A stretch of DNA of 20,000 nucleotides from an uncultured virus (IMG/VR IMGVR_UViG_3300042886_000142) (IMGVR_UViG_3300042886_000142), one strand, 5' to 3'. Positions 2 through 18,922 are shown, counted from the first letter of the stretch. The notes: generated by a model from the sequence alone, not told the origin. Made by a program: numbers and translations.

Positions 2-2728
2 ATCGGTGGTGGATATTGTAATTTTGTAAAAGGACAATATGGTAGTTATAATAGTAAAGCATCAACTATTAGTGGAGGAAGAAATAATTATACCTGTGGT
101 TCATATATTAGCATTAGTGGTGGATTACGAAATTGTGCAACTGGTGCTTGTTCAACTATTGGTGGTGGTAAATGTAATGTTACAAGTTACGCTGGTTCAA
201 CAATAAGTGGTGGTTCTTATAATATTGCTTCTAATAGTTATTCAACAGTTGGAGGAGGATATTGTAACACTGCATCTGGTAATGATTCAATAGTAGGAGG
301 TGGTAATAGTAATACTGCTTCTGCTTGTAGTTCAACAATTGGTGGTGGTCGTAGCAATACTGCTACTAATTATTTTGCCACAATTGGTGGTGGTCAACAA
401 AACATTGCTTCTGGTCTTTATTCAGCAGTTGGTGGAGGTCAAGCTAATACTGCTTCTGGTTCTCGTTCAACAATTGGTGGTGGTGTTGCTAACACTGCTT
501 CTGGTTATCGTTCAACAATAGGGGGTGGTTATAGTAATACTGCTTCTGCTTATCATTCAACAATTGGTGGGGGTAAAACTAATACTGCTTCTGGCATCCG
601 TTCAACAGTTAGTGGTGGATATAGTAATATTGCTTATAATTTTAGTTCAACAGTTGGAGGTGGTCAATATAATAATGCTTCTGGTATAGGTTCAACAGTA
701 AGTGGTGGCGGAGTGAATTATTATAATTTTAGTTATTATAGTGCTGGTAATAGTGCTTTTGGAAATTCTTCAACAATTGGCGGTGGTCTTTTTAATATTG
801 CTTCTGGATGTAGTTCTTTTATTGGTGGTGGTTGTAGCAACACTGCTTCTGCTAATAGTTCAACAATAAGTGGTGGTCAAAGCAACACTTCTTCTAGTAA
901 TTTTTCAACAGTTGGTGGTGGTGTAATTAACACTGCTTCTAATCCTTATTCAACAGTTAGTGGTGGTTTACAAAACACTGCTTCTGGTAATTCTTCAACA
1001 GTAGGTGGTGGTAGAAATAATATTGCATCTGGTATTCAATCAGCAATTGGTGGGGGTTGTCAAAATACTGCTTCTGCAACTTATTCAACTGTTGGTGGTG
1101 GTAAATATAATACTAACAATAGTCAGTATTCTACAATTTCTGGTGGTTGTGGTAATATAATTCCAAATACACAAAATAATAGAAACACTATTGGTGGTGG
1201 AGTTTGTAATGTAATGATAGCTAATACAAGTGGTGCTACAATTAGTGGTGGTAGAGCTAATACTATAAGTAGTGGTAGTGGTAGTTGTTATATGACTATT
1301 AGTGGTGGTTGTTGTAATACTATTACTTCTGGTACTGCATCAACTATTGGAGGTGGGAAATGTAATACTACTTCGGCTTTTAGTGCAACAGTTAGTGGTG
1401 GATATAGTAATACTGCTTCTGCTGGTCGTGCAACAGTTGGAGGTGGTAGTAATAATGTTGCTTCTGTTTATTGGGCAACAGTTGGAGGTGGTAATGCAAA
1501 CAATGCTTGTGGTCAATCTTCAACAATAGGCGGTGGAACTTCTAATATTGCTTCTAGTAATTATTCAATAGTTGGTGGTGGTTATTCTAATGATGCTACT
1601 AATTCTTTTGCAATAGTTGGTGGTGGTAATGCAAACACTGCTTCTGGTAGTCGTTCTACAATAAGTGGTGGTCAATCAAATACTGCTTCTTCTTCTTATT
1701 CAACAATAGGAGGTGGTTTAAATAATATTGGTTCTGGTTGTTTCTCAACAATTAGTGGAGGTCAAGGCAATACTGCTTCTGGTACTCTTTCAAATACTGG
1801 AGGTGGTTTTTGCAACATTGCTTCTGGTAGTCTTTCAACAATTGGTGGTGGTCAATGTAACAGAAATTGTTCTGACTATTCAATAATTGGCGGTGGTGTA
1901 AGTAATTGTACAGATTACGGATGTTTGAATACCATTAGTGGTGGTATGACAAATAGAATGATTCATAATACCAATAGTATTATTGGGGGAGGTCAGAATA
2001 ACTCAATTTGTGGAAATATTGCTAATTCTTCTTATACTCGTGGTAATTCTATTTTGGGAGGTTATAATAACGCTATAAACAATATAAGTTACGCTACGGA
2101 ATCTCAAAATAATACAATAACTGGCGGAATATCCAATAGTATATTTGCATATAATTCTGCATATACCTGTTCTAATTTTATTGGTGGTGGTAAGAGTAAT
2201 GCAATTTGTTCTTCAAGTAGTGATAAAGCCAGTTATAATTCTATTATAGGTGGTAGAAGTAATAATATAACTGGTTTTTGTAACTCACATATTATTGGTA
2301 GTTACCTTTCTGTAACTGCCAATGACACAACATTTGTTCAAGCATTATCAAAAACAAGTGGTACGTTTAGAATTAAGCACCCAGAACCTATAAAAAACAA
2401 AACGCATTACTTACAACACTCGTTTGTTGAATCGCCTACTGCTGGAGATAATATTTATAGATATGTTGTTAAAGTAGTAGATGGTGTTGCTGAAATTGAA
2501 TTGCCAGAGTATTTCAAATTCCTAAATGAAAACACTCAAATTTGGGTAACGCCCAAAGAAGGTTTTGGAATTGCTTATGGAAAAGTAGATGAAAATTTAA
2601 AAAAAGTAACTATATTTGCTAACGAGGATTTAGAATATAACGTTCTTATCATAGGAACAAGAAAAGATAAAGATGCTATTGAAAATTGGAATGGTATTGA
2701 AATATTACAAAATAAAATAAATAAATAA
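2..2728 (+). CDS. Large Gly/Ser/Thr/Asn-rich repeat protein, probable tail fibre/adhesin (beta-helix-like 15-aa repeats plus globular C-terminal domain); 5'-truncated by the window edge
   Basis: The frame of the 713..2728 ORF has no stop back to position 2 (IGGGYCNFVKGQYG...), so at least 908 aa are visible. It has dozens of NTASGxxSTIGGGxx repeats and a non-repetitive C-terminal ~125 aa (SGTFRIKHP...LQHSFVESP...IELPEYF) of a type I recognise from phage fibre C-termini. Confidence 0.75.
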   Translation: MGGGYCNFVKGQYGSYNSKASTISGGRNNYTCGSYISISGGLRNCATGACSTIGGGKCNVTSYAGSTISGGSYNIASNSYSTVGGGYCNTASGNDSIVGGGNSNTASACSSTIGGGRSNTATNYFATIGGGQQNIASGLYSAVGGGQANTASGSRSTIGGGVANTASGYRSTIGGGYSNTASAYHSTIGGGKTNTASGIRSTVSGGYSNIAYNFSSTVGGGQYNNASGIGSTVSGGGVNYYNFSYYSAGNSAFGNSSTIGGGLFNIASGCSSFIGGGCSNTASANSSTISGGQSNTSSSNFSTVGGGVINTASNPYSTVSGGLQNTASGNSSTVGGGRNNIASGIQSAIGGGCQNTASATYSTVGGGKYNTNNSQYSTISGGCGNIIPNTQNNRNTIGGGVCNVMIANTSGATISGGRANTISSGSGSCYMTISGGCCNTITSGTASTIGGGKCNTTSAFSATVSGGYSNTASAGRATVGGGSNNVASVYWATVGGGNANNACGQSSTIGGGTSNIASSNYSIVGGGYSNDATNSFAIVGGGNANTASGSRSTISGGQSNTASSSYSTIGGGLNNIGSGCFSTISGGQGNTASGTLSNTGGGFCNIASGSLSTIGGGQCNRNCSDYSIIGGGVSNCTDYGCLNTISGGMTNRMIHNTNSIIGGGQNNSICGNIANSSYTRGNSILGGYNNAINNISYATESQNNTITGGISNSIFAYNSAYTCSNFIGGGKSNAICSSSSDKASYNSIIGGRSNNITGFCNSHIIGSYLSVTANDTTFVQALSKTSGTFRIKHPEPIKNKTHYLQHSFVESPTAGDNIYRYVVKVVDGVAEIELPEYFKFLNENTQIWVTPKEGFGIAYGKVDENLKKVTIFANEDLEYNVLIIGTRKDKDAIENWNGIEILQNKINK
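242..1860 (+). repeat. Degenerate ~45-bp coding tandem repeat (aatactgcttctggt...tcaacaattggtggtggt)
   Basis: Consecutive units such as NTASGSRSTIGGGVA / NTASGYRSTIGGGYS / NTASAYHSTIGGGKT / NTASGIRSTVSGGYS, interrupted by longer variant units near 710-770 and 1100-1330. Confidence 0.9.
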
Positions 2729-2733
2729 ATAAA

Positions 2734-3060
2734 ATGGAAAATTTCACAATTCACATCTTCGGTTACGGAGAAACACAAATCAATTCAAAAGATTTGTCAG
2801 TAAAAGTATCAACTGATACATTAACAACAGTAACGCCTTTAGTGGCTGGAATATTTGCTAAAAAACCAGCAGATAATCCAACTGTAATTACAGACTTTCA
2901 CGCTATTAACCTATTTGGTTATAACGATGTTCGTTGGACTGCAAAAGATAGCTTTAACGTAAAAGATGATGCTGACTTAAAACCACTTATCGATGCTTTA
3001 ATTGCTGAATTGCAAAAAGCAAAAGACACAACTACTACCACAACTACAATATTGGTATAG
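2734..3060 (+). CDS. Hypothetical protein with C-terminal poly-Thr tail (DTTTTTTTILV)
   Basis: 108-aa ORF 5 nt after the fibre gene stop, followed by a terminator hairpin. Confidence 0.8.
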   Translation: MENFTIHIFGYGETQINSKDLSVKVSTDTLTTVTPLVAGIFAKKPADNPTVITDFHAINLFGYNDVRWTAKDSFNVKDDADLKPLIDALIAELQKAKDTTTTTTTILV

Positions 3061-3078
3061 TGTTCTAGATTTATTAAG

Positions 3079-3114
3079 AAAAAGGTAAGATTTTTATTAG
3101 TCTTACCTTTTTTT
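3079..3114 (+). terminator. Rho-independent terminator
   Basis: Stem aaaaaggtaaga (3079-3090) / tcttaccttttt (3101-3112) with a 10-nt loop and a T tract. Confidence 0.75.
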
Positions 3115-3117
3115 GTT

Positions 3118-3125
3118 TATCTTTG
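3118..3125 (+). promoter_or_regulatory. Bacteroidota-type sigma70 -7 element (TAnnTTTG)
   Basis: TATCTTTG ~20 nt upstream of the sulfotransferase ATG, directly after a terminator. Confidence 0.7.
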
Positions 3126-3144
3126 TATATAAAATCAATTAGTT

Positions 3145-3966
3145 ATGAAGAAAAGAATTTTATTTAACTCCTCTCTTCCTAGAGCAGGATCAACTCTTCT
3201 GCAAAATATTATTGCAGATAACCCAGACTTTCATTGTACACCTACATCAGGATTCTTAGATCTTATATTAGGTGCAAAGCAAAGTTATAATAACTCATCA
3301 GAAGTAAAAGCACAAGATGCTGAACTAATGAAGAATGCTTTTGTAGGGTTTTGTCATAATGCTATGGATGGATATTTTAATGCTCTAACAGATAAACCTA
3401 TTGTCTTAGATAAGAATAGAGGTTGGGGAATACATATTAATCTAGCTAGTGAGTTCATGGTGTCTCCTAAAGTGGTATGTATGATTAGAGATGTAAGAGC
3501 TGTATATTCTTCTATGGAGAAAAACTTTCGTAAGAATCCTACACAAGAGAATCATGTTCAAAATCCTAATCAATTAGTAGGTACTACTCTTCAAAAGAGA
3601 ATTAACATATGGGCTGATGGACCACCAGTAGGTATATCTATGGATAGACTAAAAGATGTATTTGATCAGGGAATAGATAAGAAGATATTATTTATTCGTT
3701 ATGAAGATTTAATGGACTTTCCTGAACAAGAGATGAGACGCTTCTATGAGTATATGGAACTTCCATATTATGAAGGACACAACTTTGAAACTGTTACACA
3801 GCATACACATGAAAATGATGCTATACATGGAATATATGGTGATCATAAACTAAGAACAAAGTTTGAAAGAAAGCCTGATGATTTTGAAGAAATCTTAGGA
3901 TTTGAAATATGTCAATCAATTAAAAACACTTATCCTTGGTTCTTTACCAAATTTGGATACGTATAA
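3145..3966 (+). CDS. PAPS-dependent sulfotransferase family protein
   Basis: 5'-PSB-like loop SLPRAGSTLL, 3'-PB-like motif MIRDVRAVYSS and downstream IRYEDL motif. Confidence 0.88.
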   Translation: MKKRILFNSSLPRAGSTLLQNIIADNPDFHCTPTSGFLDLILGAKQSYNNSSEVKAQDAELMKNAFVGFCHNAMDGYFNALTDKPIVLDKNRGWGIHINLASEFMVSPKVVCMIRDVRAVYSSMEKNFRKNPTQENHVQNPNQLVGTTLQKRINIWADGPPVGISMDRLKDVFDQGIDKKILFIRYEDLMDFPEQEMRRFYEYMELPYYEGHNFETVTQHTHENDAIHGIYGDHKLRTKFERKPDDFEEILGFEICQSIKNTYPWFFTKFGYV

Positions 3967-3976
3967 ATCAACCAAT

Positions 3977-4846
3977 ATGAATATAATATTTGATATATCA
4001 GGAGGCTTAGGAAAGAATGTTCTTTCTACAGCTGTATTAAAAGCTATTAAGACTAAACATCCTAAAGCAAACGTAATTGTTCTTACATCTTATCCAGATG
4101 TGTTTATTGGTAATCCAAATGTAAACAAGGTGATAGTTCATGGAACCACATTAGGTCTTTATAAAGATTACATAATGGGTAAGGACACAAAGATTTTTAT
4201 TACAGATCCTTATACATGCTCTGATTACTTAACAGAATCAAAACATCTAATTGAAATATGGTGTAAACTATGTGAGGTGCCATATAATAATGAATTACCT
4301 GAGCTTTTTATATCTAAAACAGAAATAGAATACTTTGCTCCATTCTATAAATTAGATAAACCTATTCTTGCTATACAACCTAATGGTGGTCCTCAAGATC
4401 AACCATTAAAATATAGTTGGACAAGAGACATTCCTTCTCCAGTAATTAATGATGTAATACAACATTACAAAAAGAAATATACAATTGTACACATTAAACG
4501 TGATGATCAACCAATCTACGATGATACAGTAGGAGCTCTTGATTCATTTAGAAGTATAGCTGTTCTATTATCATTATCAGAAAGAAGACTTCTTATTGAT
4601 TCATCAGCTATGCATATTGCTATAGCTCTAGGACTTCCAAGTGTTGTATGTTGGATAGGAACAAATTCAAAGGTGTTTGGATATGAAATGAATACTAATA
4701 TAGATGCTAATGCTCCAGACAAAGAATTAAACTTAGATCATCCATATTTACAAAGACTTCCATTGTTTGAAGATATCTCTAGATGTCCATATACAGAACT
4801 AGGAAGTATATTCAATAGCGAAGACATAATTAAAGCATTGAAATAA
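3977..4846 (+). CDS. GT9 (ADP-heptose:LPS heptosyltransferase)-like GT-B glycosyltransferase
   Basis: N-terminal ISGGLGKNV..TAVLKAIK..HP and C-terminal IDSSAMHIAIALGLPSVVCW match the GT9 DSGxMHxAxAxGxP motif. The start is moved to ATG 3977 to avoid overlap with the sulfotransferase. Confidence 0.75.
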   Translation: MNIIFDISGGLGKNVLSTAVLKAIKTKHPKANVIVLTSYPDVFIGNPNVNKVIVHGTTLGLYKDYIMGKDTKIFITDPYTCSDYLTESKHLIEIWCKLCEVPYNNELPELFISKTEIEYFAPFYKLDKPILAIQPNGGPQDQPLKYSWTRDIPSPVINDVIQHYKKKYTIVHIKRDDQPIYDDTVGALDSFRSIAVLLSLSERRLLIDSSAMHIAIALGLPSVVCWIGTNSKVFGYEMNTNIDANAPDKELNLDHPYLQRLPLFEDISRCPYTELGSIFNSEDIIKALK

Positions 4847-5286
4847 TGGCAGTATATTGGTTTACAGGACAGCCTTCACATGGTAAAACAGTTTTGGCTA
4901 AATTGCTAAAAGAAGAACTACAGAAATACGATAGAGTTTTTCATATAGATGGTGATGATCTTAGAGCTCTTACATTAAACAAAGACTTCTCTGAACAAGG
5001 AAGAATAGATAATGTCAAAGGTGCACAAAAAATAGCACATTATTTACATAATAAAGATTATACAGTGGTAGTTTCACTCATTGCTCCATATAGATGGCAG
5101 AGAGAAGAACTAAAAACTATGCTTGGTGCAGATCTTGTAGAACTATATGTTCATACAACAGAACCAAGAGAAAGAGATCATTTTAGTGTAAAAGATTATG
5201 AAGCTCCCTTAGAGAACTTTATAGATGTAGACACTACAGATGATACACCAGAAGAATCATTTGCTAAAATTTTAAAACTAATATAA
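4846..5286 (+). CDS. cysC: Adenylyl-sulfate (APS) kinase, compact form
   Basis: WFTGQPSHGKT P-loop, IDGDDLR, FSEQGRIDNV, VSLIAPY and YEAP motifs. Translationally coupled (TAATG) to both neighbours. Confidence 0.88.
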   Translation: MAVYWFTGQPSHGKTVLAKLLKEELQKYDRVFHIDGDDLRALTLNKDFSEQGRIDNVKGAQKIAHYLHNKDYTVVVSLIAPYRWQREELKTMLGADLVELYVHTTEPRERDHFSVKDYEAPLENFIDVDTTDDTPEESFAKILKLI

Positions 5287-5717
5287 TGGGATGGAGTAAA
5301 AAAGTGCATGTAGAATCTTCTATGCAACCAAAAGATTCACAATATGCAATGTTTGTAGGAAGATGGCAACCTTTACATGAAGGTCATGTAAAACTTTTTC
5401 AACAAGCAGTATTAGAGGGTAAAAATCTTTTAATATGTGTAAGAGATGGAGAGGTTAATGATAAAAACCCTTATACGTCAAAACAAGTAAAAAAAGCAAT
5501 AAAGGGCATGAGTAAAAATTGGTGGACAGAGGATATTTTACCTTTAATAGATAAATTAAAACCAAAAGTAAAAGTAATAATAATACCTGATATTTGCTCG
5601 GTTGAATTTGGAAGAGGTGTTGGTTATGATATAATAGAGCATATACCGCCTACAGAGATAGCAGAGATATCAGCTACAAAGGTTAGAGAACAAATGCGTA
5701 AAGATGGTGAGTTATGA
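5286..5717 (+). CDS. HxGH (cytidylyltransferase-like/NMNAT-like) nucleotidyltransferase
   Basis: MFVGRWQPLHEGH motif, NPY motif and C-terminal EISATKVR (ISST-like) motif. Confidence 0.82.
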   Translation: MGWSKKVHVESSMQPKDSQYAMFVGRWQPLHEGHVKLFQQAVLEGKNLLICVRDGEVNDKNPYTSKQVKKAIKGMSKNWWTEDILPLIDKLKPKVKVIIIPDICSVEFGRGVGYDIIEHIPPTEIAEISATKVREQMRKDGEL

Positions 5718-5923
5718 ATGTAGAAAAGAAAAGACACATAGCAAAAACTGTAAGCTATAGACTAATAAGTACATTGATTGGATTTGCACTTATGTTAGTT
5801 ATAACAGGATCAGTAAAGATGGGAGCTGCATTTGGTGTAGCAGAATTACTCTACAAACCTATACAATATTATATACATGAAAGAATATGGTATCGCTGGA
5901 TTAAATATGGATTAATAAAATAA
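5714..5923 (+). CDS. DUF2061-like small membrane protein
   Basis: RHIAKTVSYRLIST...ITGS...YYIHERIW pattern with two hydrophobic segments; ATGA overlap with the upstream gene. Confidence 0.75.
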   Translation: MNVEKKRHIAKTVSYRLISTLIGFALMLVITGSVKMGAAFGVAELLYKPIQYYIHERIWYRWIKYGLIK

Positions 5924-5924
5924 A

Positions 5925-5949
5925 AAAAACCCTCTATATGAGGGTTTTT
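5925..5949. terminator. Bidirectional intrinsic terminator between convergent genes
   Basis: aaaaaccctc-tatat-gagggttttt, a perfect 10-bp stem flanked by A and T tracts; it overlaps the stop of the minus-strand gene. Confidence 0.8.
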
Positions 5950-8900
5950 ATTTGGTCTATCACCATTTGTGGTGTTATACTCTTCTGACATTCGAACTGT
6001 CTCTCTGTACCTTCATGCACTGGACACCAATTATAATTTCCTTTATCAAACTTATATTGTGGATCATTCCAACATCCATGACACACACTTGTATTCACTG
6101 GTCTTAAACATTCAAACTCGTGATGCTTATCAGTGAAGTTAGAGATCATTATCACTTCTTTACCAAGGCCCCAAGCTAACCAGCTAAGCCCACTAGATAG
6201 TCCTATAAAGAACTTGCTTTCATCAATAACACGCATAGTGTTAGTCATTGAGGTGTCAAGTAATCCTTGACAGTTGTCAAATGGATTCTTTTCTAATGAT
6301 GTATTAATCACTTTATATCCTTGCTCATGCAAGTAGTTAATCACCTCTTGCCAAGCTTCTCTTGTCCAGAACTTACATCCTGCTGTACTATTAGTTGCAA
6401 TAGTTATATACATACCTTGCTCATGTGATTTTTTATATGCAAGTCTTGGTTTGATTTCTTTATAAGGAAGACCTAGAATATTTGTAGCTGTCTGCTGTAA
6501 TGGTATAGTGTTAGGAAGAACAGGTTCTTTGTTCTCATTATAGAACCAACCAATTTTGTACATAGCATATATATTATTGACAGCTGTTCCTGGAGCTACA
6601 AACTCTAGCATTGGATATTCTTTTTCAAACAAGAAGTTTTTGAATGTACTAACAATCACTTCACAGTTGTGTAAACATCTAAACTCTTCTACATATGGTA
6701 TCCAAGCTATTGTATCTCCTAAAGAAGAACTATCAAAAGCTATGTACACTCTTCTATTCTCTAGCTGTACGAACTTATCGTATACTTTCTCTCCATCTTT
6801 ATACACAACGGTTCTCCACTTAGTATAATACTCTCTAGCAAGTTTTATCCAGTGGTTACATTTGATTACATCGCTATGAACTAATTGCTCACCATCATAA
6901 AACTCTACACGAAAGTCACTAGTAGATGTACCAGTTATCTCTAAGAATGGTTGTCCAACAAAGTTTTGTGTTATATTATAATCTTTTATCTCATTTTTGT
7001 GTGGAATAACAGACATTACATTTTTATACAGGTTTGCATGAATTTTTCCGAAAACTTCAGACGTATTATCTGTAGGAACATCATATTTCATTAGTAGTCC
7101 CAGTATTGGAGAGTTTAAATCTACACTCTCTGCTATATAATTAGTATACATATCTTTATATTGTGGAAGATTTTTAGCTATTATAGGTAGGCCATAACTT
7201 ACAGCTTCTTTAAGTACAATAGGATTACATTCCCATGTGCTGTTAAACATAAACACATCAGCAGCTAACATAAAATGATGAATATCATTTCGTTCTCCCC
7301 ATATCTTTACATTAAAAGGTAGATCTTTCATAAGAGGTTCCCAGTAGTCTTTGAAGTTACCAGCTTGGTTACCTATGAAGTGAAACATCACCTTAGGATA
7401 TTTACGAGCAATAGCTAATCCTTCAGCTTGATTCTTACCAGGAGTCCAAAGTCCTACATTTATAACATGTCTACCACCAAGGCTCATACCTAAAAGTTCT
7501 TTATACTGTCTCTTTAATGTCTTAGATACTGGTTCTTTGTCTATAGGATATTCAATCACTTCTTTATATCCATCAAGACTGGCAAATGTATCTACATGAT
7601 AGGGAGTACAGAATGCATATGCATCTGGTGTAAACATCTTAGTCTCTGGTACAAAAGATACATCATGACATGTTTCTACTATTCTATACTTTCTACTAGG
7701 AGAATATAGTTTAGTGATCATCTCTCTATCCATTCTCTCAGACATTTCATCTATATGGATAACATCTGGTTGCCATCCATCTATTATATCAAACAGTTTC
7801 ATTTTATCTTCCCATAGTGTATGGAAGTGTGGATCTACAATATCCATGATTTGATTTCTTTGTACAACATAATCAATACCATGACATTGATATTCTACAA
7901 CAAAAATCTCTATATCTGTATTAGCTTGTAATGCCTCTATTCTTTTAAGAAGAAACTGAGGCATACCACCTGTAGATAGATGAGGTGCAAGGAACATCAC
8001 TCTCATAGGTTTAGACATCTTAGACATCATTTTAGACATTGCTATAGGATCTTTCTCTCCATGTAAGAAGAATAAGTCTTGCTCACTAACTGGTAACTTA
8101 AACCATGATTCTATATACTTGCCCCAATTGTCTTCTTCATATATCTTATCTAACTTATCAAGGCCAGCATTAGTATATATATAAGGAAGACCTTCTAAGA
8201 ATCTATGTTTCCATAATAATACATTCACTATTGTCTCTTCGTGATAAGGAGCATAATATTGAGGATTCTTTAACACCTCTGGGTGATTACACATCCAACT
8301 CCATTCATCTAAAAATGGTATACTGTTATGACCAGCTACAAAGTAACCAGTTTGTCTATACTTATCTCTAATGTTTTGATGTACACCAAACAACTGGCAT
8401 GCTGGATATTCTAATGTCTTAACTAGTTCAGTGCTTCCTCTTCCATTAATAAATAGATAGTCATATATACCCTCTGTGAAATACGGAAATTCCGAATTTA
8501 TAGGATGATAGTTGAATATTCTATCTACATACTTAGTAGCTATAGAATCAGAATCTACATAACATACTCTCTTAGCAAAGTTCTCAAGAGCATGTTTAAC
8601 TACAAGAGGTCTTTGTATTAATAGATTGTATATTCTAGAATCAGTTCTATCTATATAAGTGTTCTTAGGTAAGTCTTCAATATCAGATTGCCAATATATA
8701 GTCTTTGCTCCAGGAACCTCACTGTGACAATCTAACATGTATACTAAAACAGGAATCTTACTCATCTTGTTAAGACTTTCTACAGCAGCACATACAACAC
8801 TGTAATAAGATGCATTTGCATATAATACGTACATTTTCTCCTCTTTTATACGTGTATGCGTATAATAGCCATAATATTGATTTCTATATATACAACTAAG

Positions 8901-9347
8901 TTCAGGATATCTTTCACCCATTATAGGATGTGTAAGGTCTGGTTGGTGATGAGTTTCATGTATATTCCCCTCATGTTCTCCTTGTTCCATTTCATATGGA
9001 ATAGCCACCATACATTCTTTAGTGGATACAATGTTTCTGATTAACTTTACAGCATCATCTGTAGGAATATGTTCTAACACATCTCCCATGATTATAAAGT
9101 CATAATCACTAGTATCAAATGTGGTGATATCTCCTACATAAACATTATCATATTTAGCTCTAAGTCCATACTTTTCTATGTACGGTTCATAGATTTCTAC
9201 AGCATCAATTCTATATCCTAATGAACGTAATAATTCTGAATAAGTCCCTATTCCAGGGCCTACATCTAGTATTCTTTTACTAGTTGGAACGTTTTGAATG
9301 AACCATTCTTTCACTTCTTCTTTGAAGTAGGTAAAACTGTAAGGCAT
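5934..9347 (-). CDS. Four-domain fusion: class I SAM methyltransferase + GT-A glycosyltransferase + GT4 glycosyltransferase + Aah/TibC-like (autotransporter O-heptosyltransferase) domain
   Basis: aa1-165: ILDVGPGIG, DAVEIY, GDVLEH. aa170-445: YVDSDSIA (DxD), HEETIVNVLLW. aa448-785: FLAPHLSTGGMPQ, NVGLWTPGKNQ, DVFMFNSTWECNPIVLKEA. aa790-1137: SSSLGDTIAW, FIGLSSGLSWLAW, CHGCWND..WCP..FEC. Confidence 0.82.
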   Translation of the reverse strand: MPYSFTYFKEEVKEWFIQNVPTSKRILDVGPGIGTYSELLRSLGYRIDAVEIYEPYIEKYGLRAKYDNVYVGDITTFDTSDYDFIIMGDVLEHIPTDDAVKLIRNIVSTKECMVAIPYEMEQGEHEGNIHETHHQPDLTHPIMGERYPELSCIYRNQYYGYYTHTRIKEEKMYVLYANASYYSVVCAAVESLNKMSKIPVLVYMLDCHSEVPGAKTIYWQSDIEDLPKNTYIDRTDSRIYNLLIQRPLVVKHALENFAKRVCYVDSDSIATKYVDRIFNYHPINSEFPYFTEGIYDYLFINGRGSTELVKTLEYPACQLFGVHQNIRDKYRQTGYFVAGHNSIPFLDEWSWMCNHPEVLKNPQYYAPYHEETIVNVLLWKHRFLEGLPYIYTNAGLDKLDKIYEEDNWGKYIESWFKLPVSEQDLFFLHGEKDPIAMSKMMSKMSKPMRVMFLAPHLSTGGMPQFLLKRIEALQANTDIEIFVVEYQCHGIDYVVQRNQIMDIVDPHFHTLWEDKMKLFDIIDGWQPDVIHIDEMSERMDREMITKLYSPSRKYRIVETCHDVSFVPETKMFTPDAYAFCTPYHVDTFASLDGYKEVIEYPIDKEPVSKTLKRQYKELLGMSLGGRHVINVGLWTPGKNQAEGLAIARKYPKVMFHFIGNQAGNFKDYWEPLMKDLPFNVKIWGERNDIHHFMLAADVFMFNSTWECNPIVLKEAVSYGLPIIAKNLPQYKDMYTNYIAESVDLNSPILGLLMKYDVPTDNTSEVFGKIHANLYKNVMSVIPHKNEIKDYNITQNFVGQPFLEITGTSTSDFRVEFYDGEQLVHSDVIKCNHWIKLAREYYTKWRTVVYKDGEKVYDKFVQLENRRVYIAFDSSSLGDTIAWIPYVEEFRCLHNCEVIVSTFKNFLFEKEYPMLEFVAPGTAVNNIYAMYKIGWFYNENKEPVLPNTIPLQQTATNILGLPYKEIKPRLAYKKSHEQGMYITIATNSTAGCKFWTREAWQEVINYLHEQGYKVINTSLEKNPFDNCQGLLDTSMTNTMRVIDESKFFIGLSSGLSWLAWGLGKEVIMISNFTDKHHEFECLRPVNTSVCHGCWNDPQYKFDKGNYNWCPVHEGTERQFECQKSITPQMVIDQIKTLI

Positions 9348-11758: not shown

Positions 11759-12775
11759 ATGAAAGATTTAAAATTTATCCAGGCTTGTCCTAGTGATATT
11801 TATTACACATGGCAAGTGCACATGTGGTTAGAGAGCTTAAGAGAGATAGGTCATTCTGACAAAGCTATATCAGTAATCTTCACTCCTAAAGGGAGAGAGA
11901 ATAAAGACAAGTGGAAACAGATAGAAGATCTATATCCAGAAGCAGAGTTTCATTACTATGCTGATGAGGATAATTTAAATCGATTGTTAGGAATTTATAT
12001 TCCTGTACTTAGACCATATGTTCTTTGGAAACATTTTAAAGCACATCCAGAACTAAGTGAAAAAGCTATCTTCTATTGTGACTCTGATATTCTTTTCATG
12101 AAGGATTTCAATCTAGATAAGTTCTTAGAAGATGATGTTAACTACTTATCTGATACAAACAGCTATATCAATGCTAAATATTTTGATAGCAAGGTGCACC
12201 AAGTGTTACCAGAGAAGCTAGAAGAATATAAGAATAGGGATATCCTTGCAGAGATTGCAAGTGTGGTAGGAATAAGTAGAGAAGTGTGCGAAGCTAATAA
12301 TGATCATTCAGGAGGAGCTCAATATCTATTAAAAAATGTAGATGGTGACTTCTGGAGTAAGGTGATGAATGATTGTATTCTTATAAGAAGTTATTTACAA
12401 ACTGTGAATAGAGAATTCTTTAAAGATGAGAACTCAGGGTTTCAAAGTTGGTGTGCAGATATGTGGGCTGTCTTATGGAACATCTGGTTAAGAGATCAAG
12501 AAACAAAAGTGGTGCCTGAATTAGCATTTGCTTGGGCTACAGATCCTCTTATTAAATTAGATACACATACAATCTTTCATAATGCAGGAATAGTTTCTGA
12601 GACAGGAAATGGATACCCAGCTTTCTACAAAGGAAAGTATCACATGGGAACTGATCCAACAAAAGATCCTAACTTAGATATGATTCTTAATGATGAGAAT
12701 TCAAAAAAATATTGCACATGGTTCTATGCAAATAAATTAAATGAACTAAAACAAAAACATAACCTAAACTATTAA
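11759..12775 (+). CDS. GT-A fold glycosyltransferase resembling peptidyl O-glycosyltransferases (HPAT/SERGT-like)
   Basis: DxD motif (FYCDSDILF), N-terminal YYTWQV, GGAQYLL, SWCADMWAV and FHNAG motifs. Confidence 0.65.
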   Translation: MKDLKFIQACPSDIYYTWQVHMWLESLREIGHSDKAISVIFTPKGRENKDKWKQIEDLYPEAEFHYYADEDNLNRLLGIYIPVLRPYVLWKHFKAHPELSEKAIFYCDSDILFMKDFNLDKFLEDDVNYLSDTNSYINAKYFDSKVHQVLPEKLEEYKNRDILAEIASVVGISREVCEANNDHSGGAQYLLKNVDGDFWSKVMNDCILIRSYLQTVNREFFKDENSGFQSWCADMWAVLWNIWLRDQETKVVPELAFAWATDPLIKLDTHTIFHNAGIVSETGNGYPAFYKGKYHMGTDPTKDPNLDMILNDENSKKYCTWFYANKLNELKQKHNLNY

Positions 12776-13000: not shown

Positions 13001-13222
13001 ATGGCAAGAAGTAATAACAATAATAAGCTTAAAGCTTTTGTACGTTTTGATGGTTCAGGACGTGTAGTATCAAGTAGTTTAATTGTACAAGCATTTAAAC
13101 CGAAGGTTGGTAATTGGAAAGAAATAGATGCTAAGGAATGTTGTAATTATGTTCCAACAACAACAACTACCACTACAGTAGCACCAACAACTACAACCAC
13201 CACTACAGTTACTCCAGGGTAA
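13001..13222 (+). CDS. Small protein with T7-VAP-T7-V tail (paralog 2)
   Basis: LKAFVRFDGSGRVV..SLI...KPKVGNWKEI..ECCN followed by YVPTTTTTTTVAPTTTTTTTVTPG. Confidence 0.82.
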   Translation: MARSNNNNKLKAFVRFDGSGRVVSSSLIVQAFKPKVGNWKEIDAKECCNYVPTTTTTTTVAPTTTTTTTVTPG

Positions 13223-13941: not shown

Positions 13942-15174
13942 ATGCCAACATTTATAAAACCAGGATTCTGGAAAGAAACATGCAATCCTTGTAATGGTTA
14001 CAAAGGATGGTTAAACCTTGATCAATTCTCTGGTCAATCAGGAACAAATGGAACAAGTGGTACTAGCGGTGTATCAGGTGAACAGGGTGTTCAAGGAATT
14101 CAAGGGATACAGGGAATACAGGGAATACAAGGAGTTACAGGTTCTAGTGGTACTAATGGTACATCAGGACTAACTGGAGACAGATATCAAACTACATCTA
14201 CAACAACTTTTGAATTAGGAGTGAGTACAACTCTTACTGTTGAAACAGGATTATCTTATTCAGTAGCACAAGATGTAATTATATCATTTAATGTTAATAA
14301 TCATCAAGTGTGTTCTGTAGTTAGTTATGATCCTATAGTAGGGACATTGGTTATTGGACCTCCTATATCAGTAACTGGATCAGGTACATATAGTGTATGG
14401 GGAGTAAATCTAAATGGTGCAGCTGGAGGAGATGGTACAAACGGAACCTCTGGTACAAGTGGTCTTTCAGGATCTAATGGAACCAGTGGAACTAGTGGTA
14501 TACAAGGAATACAAGGTGTACAAGGAATTCAAGGAATTCAAGGAGTTAATGGTACCAATGGTACTTCTGGCACTAGTGGATTAACTGGAACTAACGGAAC
14601 ATCTGGTATCAATGGTAGCAATGGTACAAGTGGATCTTCAGGAGTGAGTAATGCTACAGCATCTTACGGTTTATTTGCTCAAACAGCTGATAGCACACCT
14701 GTAACTGCCACTGCAGTAGAAACAACAGTAATAGGATCAGGAGTTGGTACATTATCTGTTCCTGCAAATGCATTCTCTATTGGAGATTCTTTTCTTTGTT
14801 CTTTAGATGGTTTAATTTCTTGTACAAGTGCATCAACTGTACGCATTCGAGTAAAAACAGTAGGAGGAACACTTCTTGCAGATACTGGAATAATTGATTT
14901 GGCTGCTGCAACTAATAAAGCTTGGATAATGAACTTATATTTTACAGTAAGAACATTAGGAATAGCTACTGTTGCATCAATTTCATCTGGAGGATTGTTC
15001 TCTTATATTAGAAATGGGGGAACTCAATTTGAAGGATATAATTTAAGTACAGTTAATAGCACTACATTTGATACCACTATTAACAATACATTAGTAATCA
15101 CAGCACAGTGGGATACAGCTGATGTAGACAATTCAATATTGTCACGAAACTTCACACTAACAAAAGTCTATTAA
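13942..15174 (+). CDS. Collagen-like (Gly-X-Y) fibre protein with internal and C-terminal globular domains
   Basis: Two Gly-X-Y blocks built from GTS/GTN/GIQ/GVQ triplets (approx. 14032-14180 and 14426-14646) and beta-rich globular segments. Confidence 0.8.
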   Translation: MPTFIKPGFWKETCNPCNGYKGWLNLDQFSGQSGTNGTSGTSGVSGEQGVQGIQGIQGIQGIQGVTGSSGTNGTSGLTGDRYQTTSTTTFELGVSTTLTVETGLSYSVAQDVIISFNVNNHQVCSVVSYDPIVGTLVIGPPISVTGSGTYSVWGVNLNGAAGGDGTNGTSGTSGLSGSNGTSGTSGIQGIQGVQGIQGIQGVNGTNGTSGTSGLTGTNGTSGINGSNGTSGSSGVSNATASYGLFAQTADSTPVTATAVETTVIGSGVGTLSVPANAFSIGDSFLCSLDGLISCTSASTVRIRVKTVGGTLLADTGIIDLAAATNKAWIMNLYFTVRTLGIATVASISSGGLFSYIRNGGTQFEGYNLSTVNSTTFDTTINNTLVITAQWDTADVDNSILSRNFTLTKVY

Positions 15175-15528: not shown

Positions 15529-15732
15529 ATGAGAATATATGAACCAAAGAATAGAATAGATGTTACAACACCCAAGGGAGATGGGATAATTCTTTTTGTG
15601 ACTGATTATGGTCATGAGACAGACACCATCTATACAATTATTATAAATGAAACAGGAGAAATGTGGCAATACACCCATTCTCAATTAATAGTTAAACCCA
15701 ATATAACATTTAAACGCTATGGCAACAATTAA
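15529..15732 (+). CDS. Hypothetical protein
   Basis: 67-aa ORF (VTTPKGDG...DYG..TDTIYT) tiling on the plus strand. Confidence 0.65.
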   Translation: MRIYEPKNRIDVTTPKGDGIILFVTDYGHETDTIYTIIINETGEMWQYTHSQLIVKPNITFKRYGNN

Positions 15733-16141
15733 AAAAGCACAAGGTGGTGTAACAGCTACAAAAGATAGTACAGCTTATTTTAGTAATAAAGCTGATAAGT
15801 TATCAGCTTCTATGAAAAAGAAAAATTTAAAGGGAGATTTTAGAGGAGGATCATCAGATTTAAAAGGTGCTCTTCAAGCTTTAAAAGATGAATATAGACA
15901 AGGTAATAAAGGAAAATCTGGTTATGATAAAAATGGCTATCGTTTGAAAAATGGTGGATCTTTATCTGGACTTAAAGCCTCCAACAAAAGAGTTGGTCCT
16001 GTAGATCCTAATGGAGCATTCACAAAGGTTCAAGAAAGAACATTAGCTGGTGCTAAAGGTAAAGCTAAGCTTGTAAAAGATAAACAACTTGGTGCTACAA
16101 AGATGACAGCTAAAGCTGGAAAGAAAATCTCTAAGAAATAA
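15719..16141 (+). CDS. Lys-rich basic protein (MATIKKAQGG start)
   Basis: 140 aa, K/G/A-rich, TAATG-coupled to the next ORF. Confidence 0.75.
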   Translation: MATIKKAQGGVTATKDSTAYFSNKADKLSASMKKKNLKGDFRGGSSDLKGALQALKDEYRQGNKGKSGYDKNGYRLKNGGSLSGLKASNKRVGPVDPNGAFTKVQERTLAGAKGKAKLVKDKQLGATKMTAKAGKKISKK

Positions 16142-16305
16142 TGGCTACCACTGATAAAAAGTGGATGCAAAAAGTTTCAGCTTCTATCAAAAAACGTGGT
16201 ACTGCTGGTAAATGTACACCAATCACTAAACCTGGTTGTACAGGAAAAGCTAAAGCTCTTGCTAAAACTTTTAAAAAGATTGCTAAATCTAATAAGAAGA
16301 AATAA
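16141..16305 (+). CDS. Small Lys-rich protein, 54 aa (not in the ORF track)
   Basis: MATTDKKWMQKVSASIKKRGTAGKCTPITKPGCTGKAKALAKTFKKIAKSNKKK; TAATG overlaps at both ends. Confidence 0.8.
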   Translation: MATTDKKWMQKVSASIKKRGTAGKCTPITKPGCTGKAKALAKTFKKIAKSNKKK

Positions 16306-16858: not shown

Positions 16859-16876
16859 CAATCAAAATAATATATA

Positions 16877-17497: not shown

Positions 17498-17523
17498 AAA
17501 GCCCCTTAATTGGGGCTTTTTTT
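17498..17523. terminator. Bidirectional intrinsic terminator
   Basis: aaagcccc-ttaatt-ggggcttttttt between convergent gene blocks. Confidence 0.85.
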
Positions 17524-18921: not shown

Positions 18922-18922
18922 A

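What the first reader, a model, noticed from the sequence alone, without database searches (positions are those of the whole stretch)
3145..5923. Self-contained sulfation operon with a possible miniature non-canonical ATP sulfurylase
Seen: a promoter-to-terminator unit of sulfotransferase, GT9-like GT, CysC, a 143-aa HxGH nucleotidyltransferase and a DUF2061-like membrane protein, the last four translationally coupled. Known: PAPS synthesis needs ATP sulfurylase (Sat or CysDN) followed by APS kinase, and the Sat catalytic domain belongs to the same HxGH nucleotidyltransferase superfamily. No sat or cysDN is visible here. Inference: the small HxGH protein makes APS, completing sulfate -> APS -> PAPS -> sulfated glycan, so cysC here serves a phage modification pathway rather than host sulfur assimilation. 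The role of DUF2061 is unknown.
Basis: partly seen in the sequence, partly recalled or inferred. Interest (0 to 1): 0.75.

Follow-up and report, generated by a model that had tools for sequence, protein, structure and literature searches.

The report
Phage sulfation operon with mini-sulfurylase candidate
A crAss-like phage carries a tight five-gene set for sulfating something, probably its own tail fibre, and its tiny 143-residue enzyme is probably an unrecognised kind of ATP sulfurylase that many marine bacteria also seem to rely on, though nobody has assayed it.

Summary
The operon is real. Five same-strand ORFs lie between two terminator-like hairpins: sulfotransferase, a GT9-fold glycosyltransferase, a lid-less APS-kinase-like kinase (K), a 143-aa HxGH/ISxT nucleotidyltransferase (NT) and DUF2061. 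The last four have overlapping stop/start codons.

The 118.9-kb crAss-like phage genome has no Sat or CysD. In 77 of 80 related viral loci the order K-NT-DUF2061 is kept, and the other 3 are cut by contig ends.

NT belongs to a large unnamed family. It is fused to bona fide APS kinases in both orders (28 of 41 long representatives) and once each to DUF2061. It sits beside PAPS reductase plus sulfite reductase, CysQ-like phosphatases, sulfotransferases and sulfatases in bacteria and archaea.

Of 52 cellular genomes carrying it, 1 has Sat and 2 have a CysD-like gene; 5 of 5 tested keep their own NadD. By fold and sequence NT is a cut-down archaeal-type NMNAT, not a Sat-family member.

My best reading (about 0.6) is that NT makes APS, K makes PAPS, and the sulfotransferase uses it. 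One counter-example exists: CysDN lies next to an NT-kinase fusion. No assay exists, and four literature searches found no published description. This scan reached the same idea earlier on other DNA.

The parts
3077..3114 (+). terminator-like hairpin ending the upstream unit; marks the 5' boundary of the operon
   Evidence: 16-pair stem followed by a T run; sequence read
3145..3966 (+). PAPS-dependent sulfotransferase (ST), 273 aa
   Evidence: Pfam Sulfotransfer_3 1.5e-15 and Sulfotransfer_1 2.1e-9. phrog_27463 1.2e-37. Nearest solved sequences are protein-tyrosine sulfotransferase 1, E 3e-6. A relative is present in 64 of 80 related viral loci.
3977..4846 (+). GT-B glycosyltransferase with a GT9 (heptosyltransferase-like) fold, 289 aa
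   Evidence: No Pfam hit. Model pLDDT 92.2. Foldseek best hits are 3tov 4.8e-12, 1psw 1.8e-10, WaaC and TibC. A relative is present in 56 of 80 related viral loci.
4846..5286 (+). short, lid-less APS-kinase-like P-loop kinase (K), 146 aa
   Evidence: Pfam APS_kinase 65.8 bits. It falls below the NCBIfam cut-offs (TIGR00455 65.4 against 138.7). The best solved matches are APS kinases, 2gks 7.5e-12 and 3uie. Alignment A5 shows the P-loop, DGDxLR, F/YSxxGRxxN and PY..R kept, and about 16 lid residues absent.
5286..5717 (+). 143-aa HxGH/ISxT nucleotidyltransferase (NT), the candidate ATP sulfurylase
   Evidence: family membership, fusions, model, fold, and differences from NMNAT
5714..5923 (+). 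DUF2061 small membrane protein, 69 aa, start overlapping the NT stop (ATGA)
   Evidence: Pfam DUF2061 1.8e-15. A hydrophobic stretch covers about residues 15-45. It is present in 79 of 80 related viral loci, directly after NT. It is fused to APS kinase in L106/L108 and to NT in P0185.
5925..5949 (.). bidirectional terminator-like hairpin between the operon and the convergent 1137-aa gene
   Evidence: 10-pair stem, found on both strands; sequence read

Best explanation
The operon is a self-sufficient sulfation cassette of a crAss-like phage.

- **NT step (inferred).** NT, a cut-down relative of archaeal NMN adenylyltransferase, uses its HxGH and ISxT motifs to transfer AMP from ATP onto sulfate. 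This gives APS plus PPi. It would be a third, analogous kind of ATP sulfurylase.
- **K step (inferred from homology).** The lid-less APS-kinase-like K phosphorylates the 3'-OH of APS to give PAPS. This pulls the unfavourable first reaction forward.
- **ST step (inferred from family).** The sulfotransferase spends PAPS on an acceptor.
- **Acceptor (weakly inferred).** The acceptor is most likely the phage's own Ser/Thr/Tyr-rich repeat fibre encoded just upstream. It could be sulfated directly, or on a sugar put there by the GT9-fold transferase.
- **DUF2061 (weakly inferred).** This two-helix membrane hairpin probably holds the PAPS-making pair at the inner membrane.
- **Shown here.** The genes, their coupling, the conservation of the K-NT-DUF2061 triad, the fusions, the cellular contexts, and the absence of Sat/CysD.
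- **Not shown.** Any enzymatic activity, the acceptor, and the role of DUF2061.
For: **1. The phage has no known sulfurylase.** There is no PF01747 or PF01507 match in the complete 118.9-kb genome. None appears among the 70 further ORFs scanned.

**2. The triad is conserved in phages.** Among the 80 best of 129 viral relatives of NT, K is present in 78, DUF2061 in 79, ST in 64 and GT in 56. K-NT-DUF2061 lies in that order on one strand in 77. The 3 exceptions are cut by contig ends, and ST and GT shuffle around the triad. At least one locus without an ST hit has another sulfotransferase family instead (Sulfotransfer_2 in L007).

**3. Rosetta-stone fusions.** I scanned the 41 representatives of 182 aa or more among the 150 best NT relatives. 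Of these, 28 carry a Pfam APS_kinase domain: 17 as kinase-NT and 11 as NT-kinase. Kinase scores reach 230 bits with the full lid. One representative is NT-DUF2061. Named examples are Halalkalicoccus and an Acidobacteriota MAG.

**4. Cellular neighbourhoods.**
- L142 (Pelagibacteraceae MAG): CbiX, TP_methylase, sulfite reductase, PAPS reductase, DUF2061, K, NT.
- L091: APS kinase, NT, then a CysQ-like Inositol_P, a flippase and a sulfotransferase.
- L146 and L148: Inositol_P next to a kinase/NT fusion.
- L106 and L108: a DUF2061/APS-kinase fusion, NT, then a sulfotransferase-like gene.
- L134: two sulfotransferases next to an NT-kinase fusion.
- L145: sulfatases and TauE.

**5. Phyletic complementarity.**
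- Of 52 NT-bearing genomes (29 Pelagibacterales, 23 others), 1 has Sat and 2 have a CysD-like gene above 200 bits. None passes the CysD cut-off.
- Base rates are much higher. CysD is found in 37 of 61 Chitinophagaceae. Among the 14 control genomes, Sat is in 5 and CysD in 4.
- Passages of Grote et al. 2012 (PMC3448164) say only 1 of 7 SAR11 strains has sat, while an APS kinase is mentioned.

**6. NT is not a housekeeping enzyme.** Of 5 tested NT genomes, 5 have their own NadD and 4 their own CoaD.

**7. NT is remodelled relative to true NMNATs.**
- It scores 28-52 bits on NF002243 (cut-off 127); 6 of 6 outgroup NMNATs pass.
- It lacks a roughly 26-residue insert and the C-terminal helices.
- It has IRD where NMNATs have IGS, and an invariant GRxVGY. 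That adds two conserved arginines (R53, R110).
Against: - No biochemical data exist for any member.
- By sequence and fold NT is closest to NMNAT and PPAT (1f9a Z 9.7, 4nah 9.1). Sat is only mid-list (1v47 Z 7.0).
- A profile comparison with Sat aligns only the C-terminal ISxT-like motif, at probability 11.5 %.
- In L107 (Acidobacteriota) a CysN-like and a CysD-like gene lie divergently adjacent to an NT-kinase fusion. NT is therefore not always a replacement. G016 also has a CysD-like gene and G049 has Sat.
- Most of the 52 genomes are incomplete MAGs or SAGs of 0.7-1.6 Mb, and 29 are one lineage already known to lack sulfate assimilation. The absence counts are not independent.
- K lacks the lid of canonical APS kinases and fails the NCBIfam cut-offs.
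- Stenotrophomonas phage DLP_6 has a kinase-NT fusion with no sulfotransferase within 5 kb.
- The host is unknown and may supply APS itself.
Confidence: 0.6

Rival explanations
1. NT and K work together, but not on sulfate. NT adenylylates some other small phospho- or anionic acceptor, and the APS-kinase-like K phosphorylates that product. The result would be a PAPS-like or CoA-like 3'-phospho-nucleotide used by another enzyme.
For: - The nearest folds are NMNAT and PPAT, which take phospho-acceptors.
- The phage and SAR11 kinases are divergent and lid-less.
- DLP_6 carries the fusion without a sulfotransferase nearby.
- SAR11 loci place a HalD-like oxygenase after NT, not a sulfotransferase.
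Against: - Many fusions carry full, high-scoring canonical APS kinase domains of up to 230 bits.
- The contexts are specifically sulfur-related: PAPS reductase plus sulfite reductase, CysQ-like phosphatases, sulfotransferases, sulfatases and TauE.
- 64 of 80 phage loci have the same sulfotransferase family nearby.
Confidence: 0.12
2. The host supplies APS through its own CysDN or Sat. The phage adds only the kinase and the sulfotransferase. NT is an unrelated NMNAT-type NAD-salvage gene that happens to travel with them.
For: - The best sequence and fold matches are NMNATs.
- Some sources name relatives NMNAT.
- 61 % of one Bacteroidota family has CysD, so a host source of APS is plausible.
Against: - NT scores 21-31 bits against NMNAT cut-offs of 127-181.
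- It lacks the insert and C-terminal part that all 6 true NMNATs in A6 share.
- No other NAD-salvage gene was seen in the phage.
- A chance passenger would not be fused to APS kinase in both orders, nor be stop/start-coupled to K and DUF2061 in 77 of 80 loci.
- NT-bearing cells keep their own NadD.
Confidence: 0.08
3. NT is an HldC-like sugar-1-phosphate adenylyltransferase that makes the ADP-sugar donor (such as ADP-heptose) for the neighbouring GT9-fold transferase.
For: - The GT has a heptosyltransferase fold.
- NT gives weak hits to RfaE domain II (TIGR02199, E 0.004) and phrog_7878 (E 0.001).
- HldC appears among the fold matches (5x9q Z 5.7).
Against: - The GT is the least conserved member of the cassette (56 of 80 loci), while K-NT-DUF2061 is invariant.
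- The cellular NT-kinase modules examined had no GT9 next to them.
- No GmhA, GmhB or HldE-kinase genes were seen in the phage.
- The fusion partner is APS kinase, not a sugar kinase.
Confidence: 0.06
4. NT is a non-catalytic regulatory or scaffolding partner of the APS kinase. It would be comparable in spirit to the inactive APS-kinase-like domain of fungal ATP sulfurylase (recalled).
For: The association and fusion with the kinase are constant. The domain is small.
Against: The nucleotide-binding and catalytic signatures are invariant or nearly so across 60 diverse members: R26, H31, G33, H34, S129, T131 and R134. This argues for an active enzyme.
Confidence: 0.04

Closest known systems
Bifunctional Sat-CysC enzymes and PAPS synthases (human PAPSS1, PDB 1x6v; Aquifex aeolicus Sat/APS kinase, PDB 2gks)
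   Same: - A HIGH-superfamily adenylyltransferase is paired or fused with APS kinase, in either order, to make PAPS. This is the same logic as the K-NT pair and its fusions.
- The C-terminal SGT/ISAT..R motif is shared.
   Different: - NT gives no PF01747 match, and profile similarity is only 11.5 % probability.
- NT is about 120-143 aa, against a roughly 210-position catalytic domain plus a PUA-like domain.
- Fold similarity is mid-range: Z 7.0 to 1v47, 5.8 to 2gks and 5.2 to 1x6v.
Archaeal / NadM-type NMN adenylyltransferase (NF002243, TIGR01527; PDB 1f9a, 1ej2, 2qjt, 2qjo)
   Same: - It is the best fold match (Z 9.7, 8.8, 8.2) and the best sequence match (E 1e-4).
- The GRxQPxHxGH, NPF(T/S) and ISxTxxR motifs are shared.
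   Different: - NT is far below the family cut-offs: 31 bits against 127 and 21 against 181.
- It lacks a roughly 26-residue insert and the C-terminal helices.
- It has IRD in place of IGS and GRxVGY in place of F(R/K)E(R/E)G.
- Its neighbours are sulfur genes, never NAD genes.
CysDN / NodPQ with NodH (GTP-coupled ATP sulfurylase, APS kinase and a sulfotransferase in Rhizobium Nod-factor sulfation; recalled)
   Same: A dedicated PAPS supply is encoded next to a sulfotransferase for a surface or secreted product rather than for cysteine synthesis.
   Different: - The phage has no CysD or CysN homologue.
- NT has no GTPase partner.
- The cassette adds a DUF2061 membrane protein.
Bacterial autotransporter heptosyltransferases with their adhesins (TibC/TibA, Aah/AIDA-I; PDB 4rap, 4rb4)
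   Same: The GT model matches TibC (E 2e-6). The gene lies directly behind a long repeat fibre rich in Ser/Thr.
   Different: - LPS heptosyltransferases match better (3tov, 1psw).
- The acceptor is untested.
- No sulfation is known in those systems (recalled).
Protein-tyrosine sulfotransferases (TPST1; PDB 5wri, 5wrj, 9wp1)
   Same: They are the only solved sequences that match ST (E 3e-6 to 6e-6, over the N-terminal PAPS-binding region and a C-terminal stretch). Both belong to the Sulfotransfer_3 type.
   Different: The match covers about 90 of 273 residues. The acceptor specificity is unknown.

Membership tests
Sat-type ATP sulfurylase (PF01747) | Significant match to the ATP-sulfurylase catalytic-domain profile | tested here: not met
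   PF01747 is not among the NT Pfam hits at E <= 0.01. hhalign of the NT family (A2) against 8 cyanobacterial Sat domains (A4) gives probability 11.5 %, with 34 C-terminal columns aligned only.
Sat-type ATP sulfurylase (PF01747) | Catalytic-domain fold | tested here: inconclusive
   Sat chains appear at Z 7.0 (1v47), 5.8 (2gks) and 5.2-5.3 (1r6x, 1j70, 4maf, 1x6v). They rank below NMNAT and PPAT at Z 8.2-9.7. This shows a shared superfamily, not family membership.
Sat-type ATP sulfurylase (PF01747) | Formation of APS from ATP and sulfate | not testable with these tools
   This needs an enzyme assay or genetic complementation.
CysD/CysN heterodimeric ATP sulfurylase | CysD (PAPS_reduct-type, TIGR02039) and a CysN GTPase | tested here: not met
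   The whole phage genome has no PF01507 match. NT has a different fold.
Archaeal/NadM-type NMN adenylyltransferase (NF002243, TIGR01527) | Score above the curated cut-off | tested here: not met
   Window NT scores 31.0 against 127 and 21.3 against 181.2. Four cellular family members score 28-52 against 127, whereas 6 of 6 outgroup proteins pass NF002243.
Archaeal/NadM-type NMN adenylyltransferase (NF002243, TIGR01527) | Fold and nucleotide-binding motifs (GRxQPxHxGH, ISxTxxR) | tested here: met
   1f9a Z 9.7, rmsd 2.9 over 110 residues. The motifs are present and conserved.
Archaeal/NadM-type NMN adenylyltransferase (NF002243, TIGR01527) | Full-length architecture (middle insert and C-terminal helices shared by true members) | tested here: not met
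   In alignment A6, all 9 NT-family rows lack the roughly 26-column insert. The phage rows also lack the C-terminal extension present in all 6 NMNAT rows.
APS kinase (PF01583; TIGR00455) - for K | Profile match | tested here: inconclusive
   Pfam 65.8 bits, above the 21.1 cut-off. TIGR00455 gives 65.4 against 138.7, and all other NCBIfam APS-kinase models fall below their cut-offs.
APS kinase (PF01583; TIGR00455) - for K | P-loop, DGD..R, F..R..N and SP(Y) substrate motifs; mobile lid | tested here: inconclusive
   The motifs align with solved APS kinases and are conserved in A5. The roughly 16-residue lid present in canonical rows (L091, L094, L143) is absent from all phage and SAR11 rows.
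Glycosyltransferase family 9 - for GT | Sequence profile PF01075 | tested here: not met
   No Pfam hit at E <= 0.01. The only match is a 15-bit partial hit to TIGR02201.
Glycosyltransferase family 9 - for GT | GT-B fold closest to heptosyltransferases | tested here: met
   Foldseek gives 3tov 4.8e-12, 1psw 1.8e-10, WaaC 6.5e-8 and TibC 2e-6.
Sulfotransfer_3 (PF13469) - for ST | Profile match over the whole domain | tested here: met
   58.5 bits against a 27 cut-off, covering residues 10-209 of the protein and positions 6-215 of the 216-position profile.
DUF2061 (PF09834) | Profile match | tested here: met
   57.6 bits against a 23.1 cut-off; confirmed in the genome search.

The most novel reading that the evidence does not exclude
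The NT family would be a third class of ATP sulfurylase. It would have been carved out of an NMNAT-type nucleotidyltransferase and would work as a minimal PAPS synthase with APS kinase and, often, a DUF2061 membrane anchor.

- Phages of several kinds would carry it to sulfate their own fibres.
- It would be the missing sulfate-activating enzyme of SAR11, Marine Group II archaea, Peribacteria, some Bacteroidota and haloarchaea, all of which lack Sat and CysDN.
- Some Pelagibacterales would then have a complete sulfate-assimilation operon built on it (L142).
Probability: 0.55. Interest if true: 0.85.

Novelty: new variant of a known kind. Interest (0 to 1): 0.75.

Why it matters
ATP sulfurylase is the entry point of sulfate into all biology, and only two enzyme types are recognised (Sat and CysDN).

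- **Metabolic reconstruction.** A third, 120-140-residue type would change how genomes and metagenomes are read. Genomes now scored as unable to activate sulfate would in fact be able to make PAPS. That includes the most abundant marine bacteria, where an orphan APS kinase has been noted in print (passages of PMC3448164).
- **Phage biology.** It would show that phages carry a complete, host-independent sulfation pathway, probably to decorate virion fibres. Sulfation of a bacteriophage virion has, to my knowledge, not been demonstrated (recalled; not searched specifically).
- **Practical use.** The enzyme's small size would make it attractive for PAPS regeneration in biocatalysis.

Tried and rejected
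- **Complex prediction on K plus NT** (alignments A5 and A1) gave no verdict (score 0.00). It says nothing either way.
It was redone with the 11-row A2.
- **megablast of the operon** against deposited phages found no match.
- **tblastn of NT** found only one full-length deposited-phage relative, the DLP_6 fusion, plus N-terminal matches to NadM-like genes of Sinorhizobium phages.
- **Foldseek of the NT model** against the PDB found nothing at E <= 0.001. VIA-align was needed.
- **DUF2061 'longer' search** returned only close phage relatives with short extensions and no enzyme fusions. The fusions came from other calls (33, 52).
- **Protein Atlas look-ups** of NT and DUF2061 returned only viral clusters with generic names.
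- **Within-family cross-tabulation in Chitinophagaceae** failed as a test of exclusivity. NT was found in only 1 of 61 genomes, the centre itself. The search served only as a base rate for CysD.
- **Sigma-70 promoter scan** was no better than shuffles.
- **DUF2061 in the literature** appears in 6 papers. In the two I opened, it occurs only in tables of iron-regulated genes of unknown function.
- **Considered and rejected: NT as the cell's NMNAT or PPAT.** NT-bearing genomes keep their own NadD and CoaD.
- **Considered and rejected: NT as a truncated gene fragment.** The length and motifs are conserved across thousands of proteins.


Full report
**1. What is in the window**

The window is bases 68,775-88,774 of a 118,934-base IMG/VR virus record rated 100 % complete. 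Pfam hits outside the window show a crAss-like phage, so a Bacteroidota host is likely. These hits are Crass_capsid, CrAss_Ring_1 and CrAss_Ring_2, the crAss muzzle protein, a P22-type portal and a 4328-aa giant protein. G+C is about 31-35 %.

- ST, 3145-3966
- GT, 3977-4846
- K, 4846-5286
- NT, 5286-5717
- DUF2061, 5714-5923

Their junctions are a 10-nt spacer at ST/GT, TAATG at GT/K, TAATG at K/NT and ATGA at NT/DUF.

Terminator-like hairpins bracket the unit at 3077-3114 and 5925-5949. Four such sites were found in 2700-6100 against 1.0 +/- 1.1 in shuffles. Sigma-70-like promoter sites are not enriched (16 against 19.9 +/- 4.5), so the promoter stays unverified.

**2. The individual genes**

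*ST.* It is a Sulfotransfer_3/Sulfotransfer_1 protein (58.5 and 37.6 bits). The only solved sequences it matches are protein-tyrosine sulfotransferases (E 3e-6).

*GT.* It has no Pfam hit. A confident model (pLDDT 92.2, built on 27 sequences) is closest to GT9 enzymes: 3tov 4.8e-12, WaaF 1.8e-10, WaaC, and the protein heptosyltransferase TibC 2e-6.

*K.*
- It matches Pfam APS_kinase (65.8 bits) and solved APS kinases (2gks 7.5e-12, 3uie 2.7e-10).
- It falls below every NCBIfam APS-kinase cut-off.
- Alignment A5 shows why. The phage and SAR11 kinases keep the P-loop, DGDxLR, F/YSxxGRxxN and PY..R segments. They lack about 16 residues of the lid that canonical rows possess.

*NT.* It has GRWQPLHEGH and ISATKVR, with weak hits to CTP_transf_like (27.7 bits) and to NMNAT models far below their cut-offs.

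*DUF2061.* It scores 57.6 bits and has a hydrophobic stretch over about residues 15-45.

**3. No known sulfurylase in the phage**

Six-frame searches of the whole genome with PF01747 (Sat) and PF01507 (CysD/CysH type) found nothing. The control genomes responded as expected. Pfam scans of 70 ORFs outside the window, and of the window's other ORFs, showed none either.

**4. The cassette is conserved and mobile among phages**

A scan of IMG/VR with NT found 129 relatives, and the best 80 loci were kept. I searched them with phmmer using the window's own proteins at E <= 1e-3, over flanks of up to 6 kb:

| Gene | Loci with a relative (of 80) |
|---|---|
| K | 78 |
| DUF2061 | 79 |
| ST | 64 |
| GT | 56 |

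- The order K, NT, DUF2061 on one strand holds in 77 loci.
- The three exceptions (L049, L057, L063) are cut by a contig end.
- ST and GT take several positions around the triad.
- The ST count is a floor. L007 has a Sulfotransfer_2 gene instead.
- The contigs range from a few kb to 373 kb, so different phage types carry the cassette.
- Homing-endonuclease-like domains are fused to NT in some relatives: 320-aa forms and a NUMOD3 form.
- Fibre genes flank the cassette in the window, in L024 and in L061.

**5. The NT family and its fusions**

- The word-indexed search returned 4108 proteins at E <= 1e-3. Many are named 'adenylylsulfate kinase' by one source although they hold only the NT domain.
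- The exhaustive search of 1.84 billion representatives gave 968 at E <= 1e-3 and 277 at E <= 1e-10.
- I scanned the 41 listed representatives of 182 aa or more with Pfam.
  - 28 carry an APS_kinase domain: 17 with the kinase first and 11 with NT first.
  - Several have full-length canonical kinase domains (P0179 230.7 bits, P0290 193.8, P0206 188.7).
  - One is NT plus DUF2061 (P0185), one is methyltransferase plus NT, and the rest show NT alone or an unknown extension.
- The sequences show the canonical lid in these fused kinases.
- Named members include Halalkalicoccus 'adenylyl-sulfate kinase' (286 aa) and an Acidobacteriota MAG protein (319 aa).
- phrog_10255 (230 positions) spans both K and NT. 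Its deposited example is a 243-aa protein of Stenotrophomonas phage DLP_6.

**6. Cellular contexts**

A scan of one genome per species with alignment A2 found 470 relatives, and 80 loci were kept.
- 68 loci (L089-L155 and L160) belong to the family.
- The other 12 are distant. The six I aligned pass the NMNAT model NF002243.
- K was found next to or fused with NT in 53 of the 68 by phmmer. That is an undercount, because Pfam found a further kinase in L096.

Neighbourhoods:

| Locus | Organism label | Gene order or neighbours |
|---|---|---|
| L142 | Pelagibacteraceae MAG | CbiX, uroporphyrinogen methylase, sulfite reductase, PAPS reductase, DUF2061, K, NT |
| L091, L092 | Bacteroidota | canonical APS kinase (233-240 bits), NT, a CysQ-like Inositol_P; in L091 also a flippase and a sulfotransferase |
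| L146, L148 | Marine Group II | Inositol_P beside a kinase-NT fusion |
| L106, L108 | Chitinophagaceae | DUF2061/APS-kinase fusion, NT, a sulfotransferase-like gene |
| L134 | Omnitrophota | two sulfotransferases beside NT-kinase |
| L150 | - | sulfotransferase beside kinase-NT |
| L145 | - | sulfatases and TauE |
| L090 | - | Sulfotransfer_5 upstream |
| L110, L096 | SAR11 | K, NT, a HalD-like oxygenase |

L142 has every step of assimilatory sulfate reduction except a sulfurylase.

**7. Phyletic pattern**

- I searched 52 of the 68 genomes whole. Sixteen Pelagibacteraceae loci were left out only to fit a 50-handle limit.
- Sat is present in 1 of 52, namely G049, a Synechococcus MAG.
- For CysD (TIGR02039), none passes the cut-off.
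  - Two have a clear CysD-like gene: G016 at 210.9 bits and G023 at 223.1 bits.
  - Two have only faint hits: G004 at 32 bits and G038 at 22 bits.
- So 49 of 52 lack both enzymes: all 29 Pelagibacterales and 20 of the 23 others.
- For comparison, 37 of 61 sampled Chitinophagaceae have CysD over the cut-off. Of the 14 control genomes, 5 have Sat and 4 have CysD.
- There are two caveats. Most genomes are partial MAGs or SAGs, and the SAR11 genomes are not independent.
- Passages of Grote et al. 2012 (PMC3448164) state that only one of seven SAR11 strains has sat, and they mention an APS kinase. This fits an orphan kinase.
- Passages of a Marine Group II paper (PMC6864105) report CysDN plus CysC in MGIIb. 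The pattern there is therefore mixed.

**8. The counter-example**

In L107 (Acidobacteriota) a GTP_EFTU protein (CysN-like) and a PAPS_reduct protein (the 223-bit CysD-like hit) lie divergently next to the NT-APS-kinase fusion. NT is therefore not always a replacement for CysDN. The case is compatible with two sulfurylases in one sulfate-activation locus. It also leaves room for another role of NT in the same pathway.

**9. What NT is structurally**

- The model is confident (pLDDT 90.6, pTM 0.82).
- Foldseek found nothing at E <= 0.001. Its best hit was archaeal NMNAT (1.9e-3), and soybean ATP sulfurylase ranked 40th.
- The full VIA-align search ranks as follows:

| Match | Z |
|---|---|
| NMNAT 1f9a | 9.7 (rmsd 2.9, 110 residues aligned) |
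| PPAT 4nah | 9.1 |
| NadM 2qjt / 2qjo | 8.8 / 8.2 |
| ATP sulfurylase 1v47 | 7.0 |
| Other Sat chains | 5.2-5.8 |

- A profile comparison with cyanobacterial Sat domains aligns only ISATxxR with LSGTxFR (probability 11.5 %).
- In alignment A1 the invariant residues are R26, H34, P62, G109, R110 and G113. Nearly invariant are G25, Q28, H31, G33, R53, N61, P101, V112, Y114, S129, T131, I133 and R134.
- Against six true NMNATs (A6), the family shares the ATP-binding motifs and NPF(T/S).
- It differs in having IRD for IGS and GRxVGY for F(R/K)E(R/E)G. It has lost a roughly 26-residue insert and, in phages, the C-terminal helices.
- My inference, not a result: the pocket for the large NMN moiety has been removed, and two conserved arginines were added where a small anion could sit.
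- NT-bearing cells keep their own NadD (5 of 5) and CoaD (4 of 5).

**10. Reading**

The simplest account of all this is that NT makes APS. The observations it has to explain are:
- an invariant, translationally coupled K-NT pair;
- repeated fusion to real APS kinases in both orders;
- neighbours that consume PAPS or recycle PAP;
- genomes without Sat or CysDN;
- intact catalytic motifs on a stripped-down acceptor side.

I put this at about 0.6. The acceptor of the phage sulfotransferase is open. It could be a glycan laid down by the GT9-fold enzyme or a protein residue, given the tyrosine-sulfotransferase likeness. In either case the adjacent 2299-aa repeat fibre is the obvious candidate substrate.

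The role of DUF2061 is unknown. Its fusions to both NT and the kinase suggest a membrane anchor for the pair.

**11. Literature and earlier notes**

- Four full-text searches found no paper describing this family as a sulfurylase or describing the fusion: listings only; 0 papers; listing plus the two passages above.
- The DUF2061 search found 6 papers. In the two I opened, it appears only in tables of iron-regulated genes.
- Supplements were not consulted.
- After my own analysis was largely done, a look-up showed that this scan had noted the same idea on other DNA several times. I treat those notes as leads, not evidence.

Noticed in passing
window 2-2728 (part of G000 ORF L086:4603-11502): This is the C-terminal part of a 2299-aa fibre ORF with collagen repeats upstream. 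In the window it carries dozens of 45-nt / 15-residue tandem repeats rich in Gly, Ser, Thr, Asn and Tyr. It is a candidate acceptor for the GT and ST.
   Followed up: partly
window 2734-3060 and 13001-13222: A 108-aa ORF ends in a run of seven threonines. A 73-aa ORF holds two runs of seven threonines.
   Followed up: no
window 5934-9347 (- strand): A convergent 1137-aa ORF combines a methyltransferase domain (residues 21-107), a GT1 domain (634-737) and a GT9 domain (958-1075). It is probably part of the same decoration system.
   Followed up: no
window 11759-12775, 17522-18172, 18169-18945: These are further glycosyltransferase-like genes: phrog_4417 (unknown function), TOD1_MUCI70-like, and GT2. 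The window is unusually rich in glycan enzymes around the tail-fibre genes (collagen-like fibre at 13942-15174).
   Followed up: no
window 15719-17338: Four small Lys/Gly-rich ORFs (91-153 aa) lie here. Two of them start with nearly the same residues, and one matches DUF6321. Their function is unknown.
   Followed up: no
window 3118-3125: A TATCTTTG sequence lies 20 nt before the ST start codon. It fits the TAnnTTTG -7 element of Bacteroidota promoters as I recall it. No matching -33 TTTG at the usual distance was seen.
   Followed up: no
L142:1193-6330: A Pelagibacteraceae MAG has the operon CbiX, uroporphyrinogen methylase, sulfite reductase, PAPS reductase, DUF2061, kinase, NT. No Sat or CysD was found in the 1.1-Mb assembly. 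This looks like sulfate assimilation in a SAR11 relative.
   Followed up: partly
L110:5561-7200 and L096:3170-7190: In SAR11 genomes the kinase-NT pair is followed by a 283-aa HalD/WelO5-like Fe/2OG enzyme, not a sulfotransferase. In L096 an autotransporter gene is inserted between the kinase and NT. The PAPS consumer there is unknown.
   Followed up: no
L107:3803-6945: In an Acidobacteriota MAG, CysN-like and CysD-like genes are divergently adjacent to an NT-APS-kinase fusion. This is the one clear case of co-occurrence with a canonical sulfurylase.
   Followed up: partly
L001:4623-5354 (Stenotrophomonas phage vB_SmaS-DLP_6, AAY80_227): A deposited phage has a 243-aa kinase-NT fusion annotated as a hypothetical protein. 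It lies among DNA-metabolism genes, with no sulfotransferase within 5 kb.
   Followed up: partly
P0121-P0135, P0141 (relatives of NT): NT genes in related phages are fused to or preceded by homing-endonuclease-like domains, including a NUMOD3 form. Several loci show gaps of about 300 nt between K and NT or between NT and DUF2061. These may be small mobile insertions.
   Followed up: no
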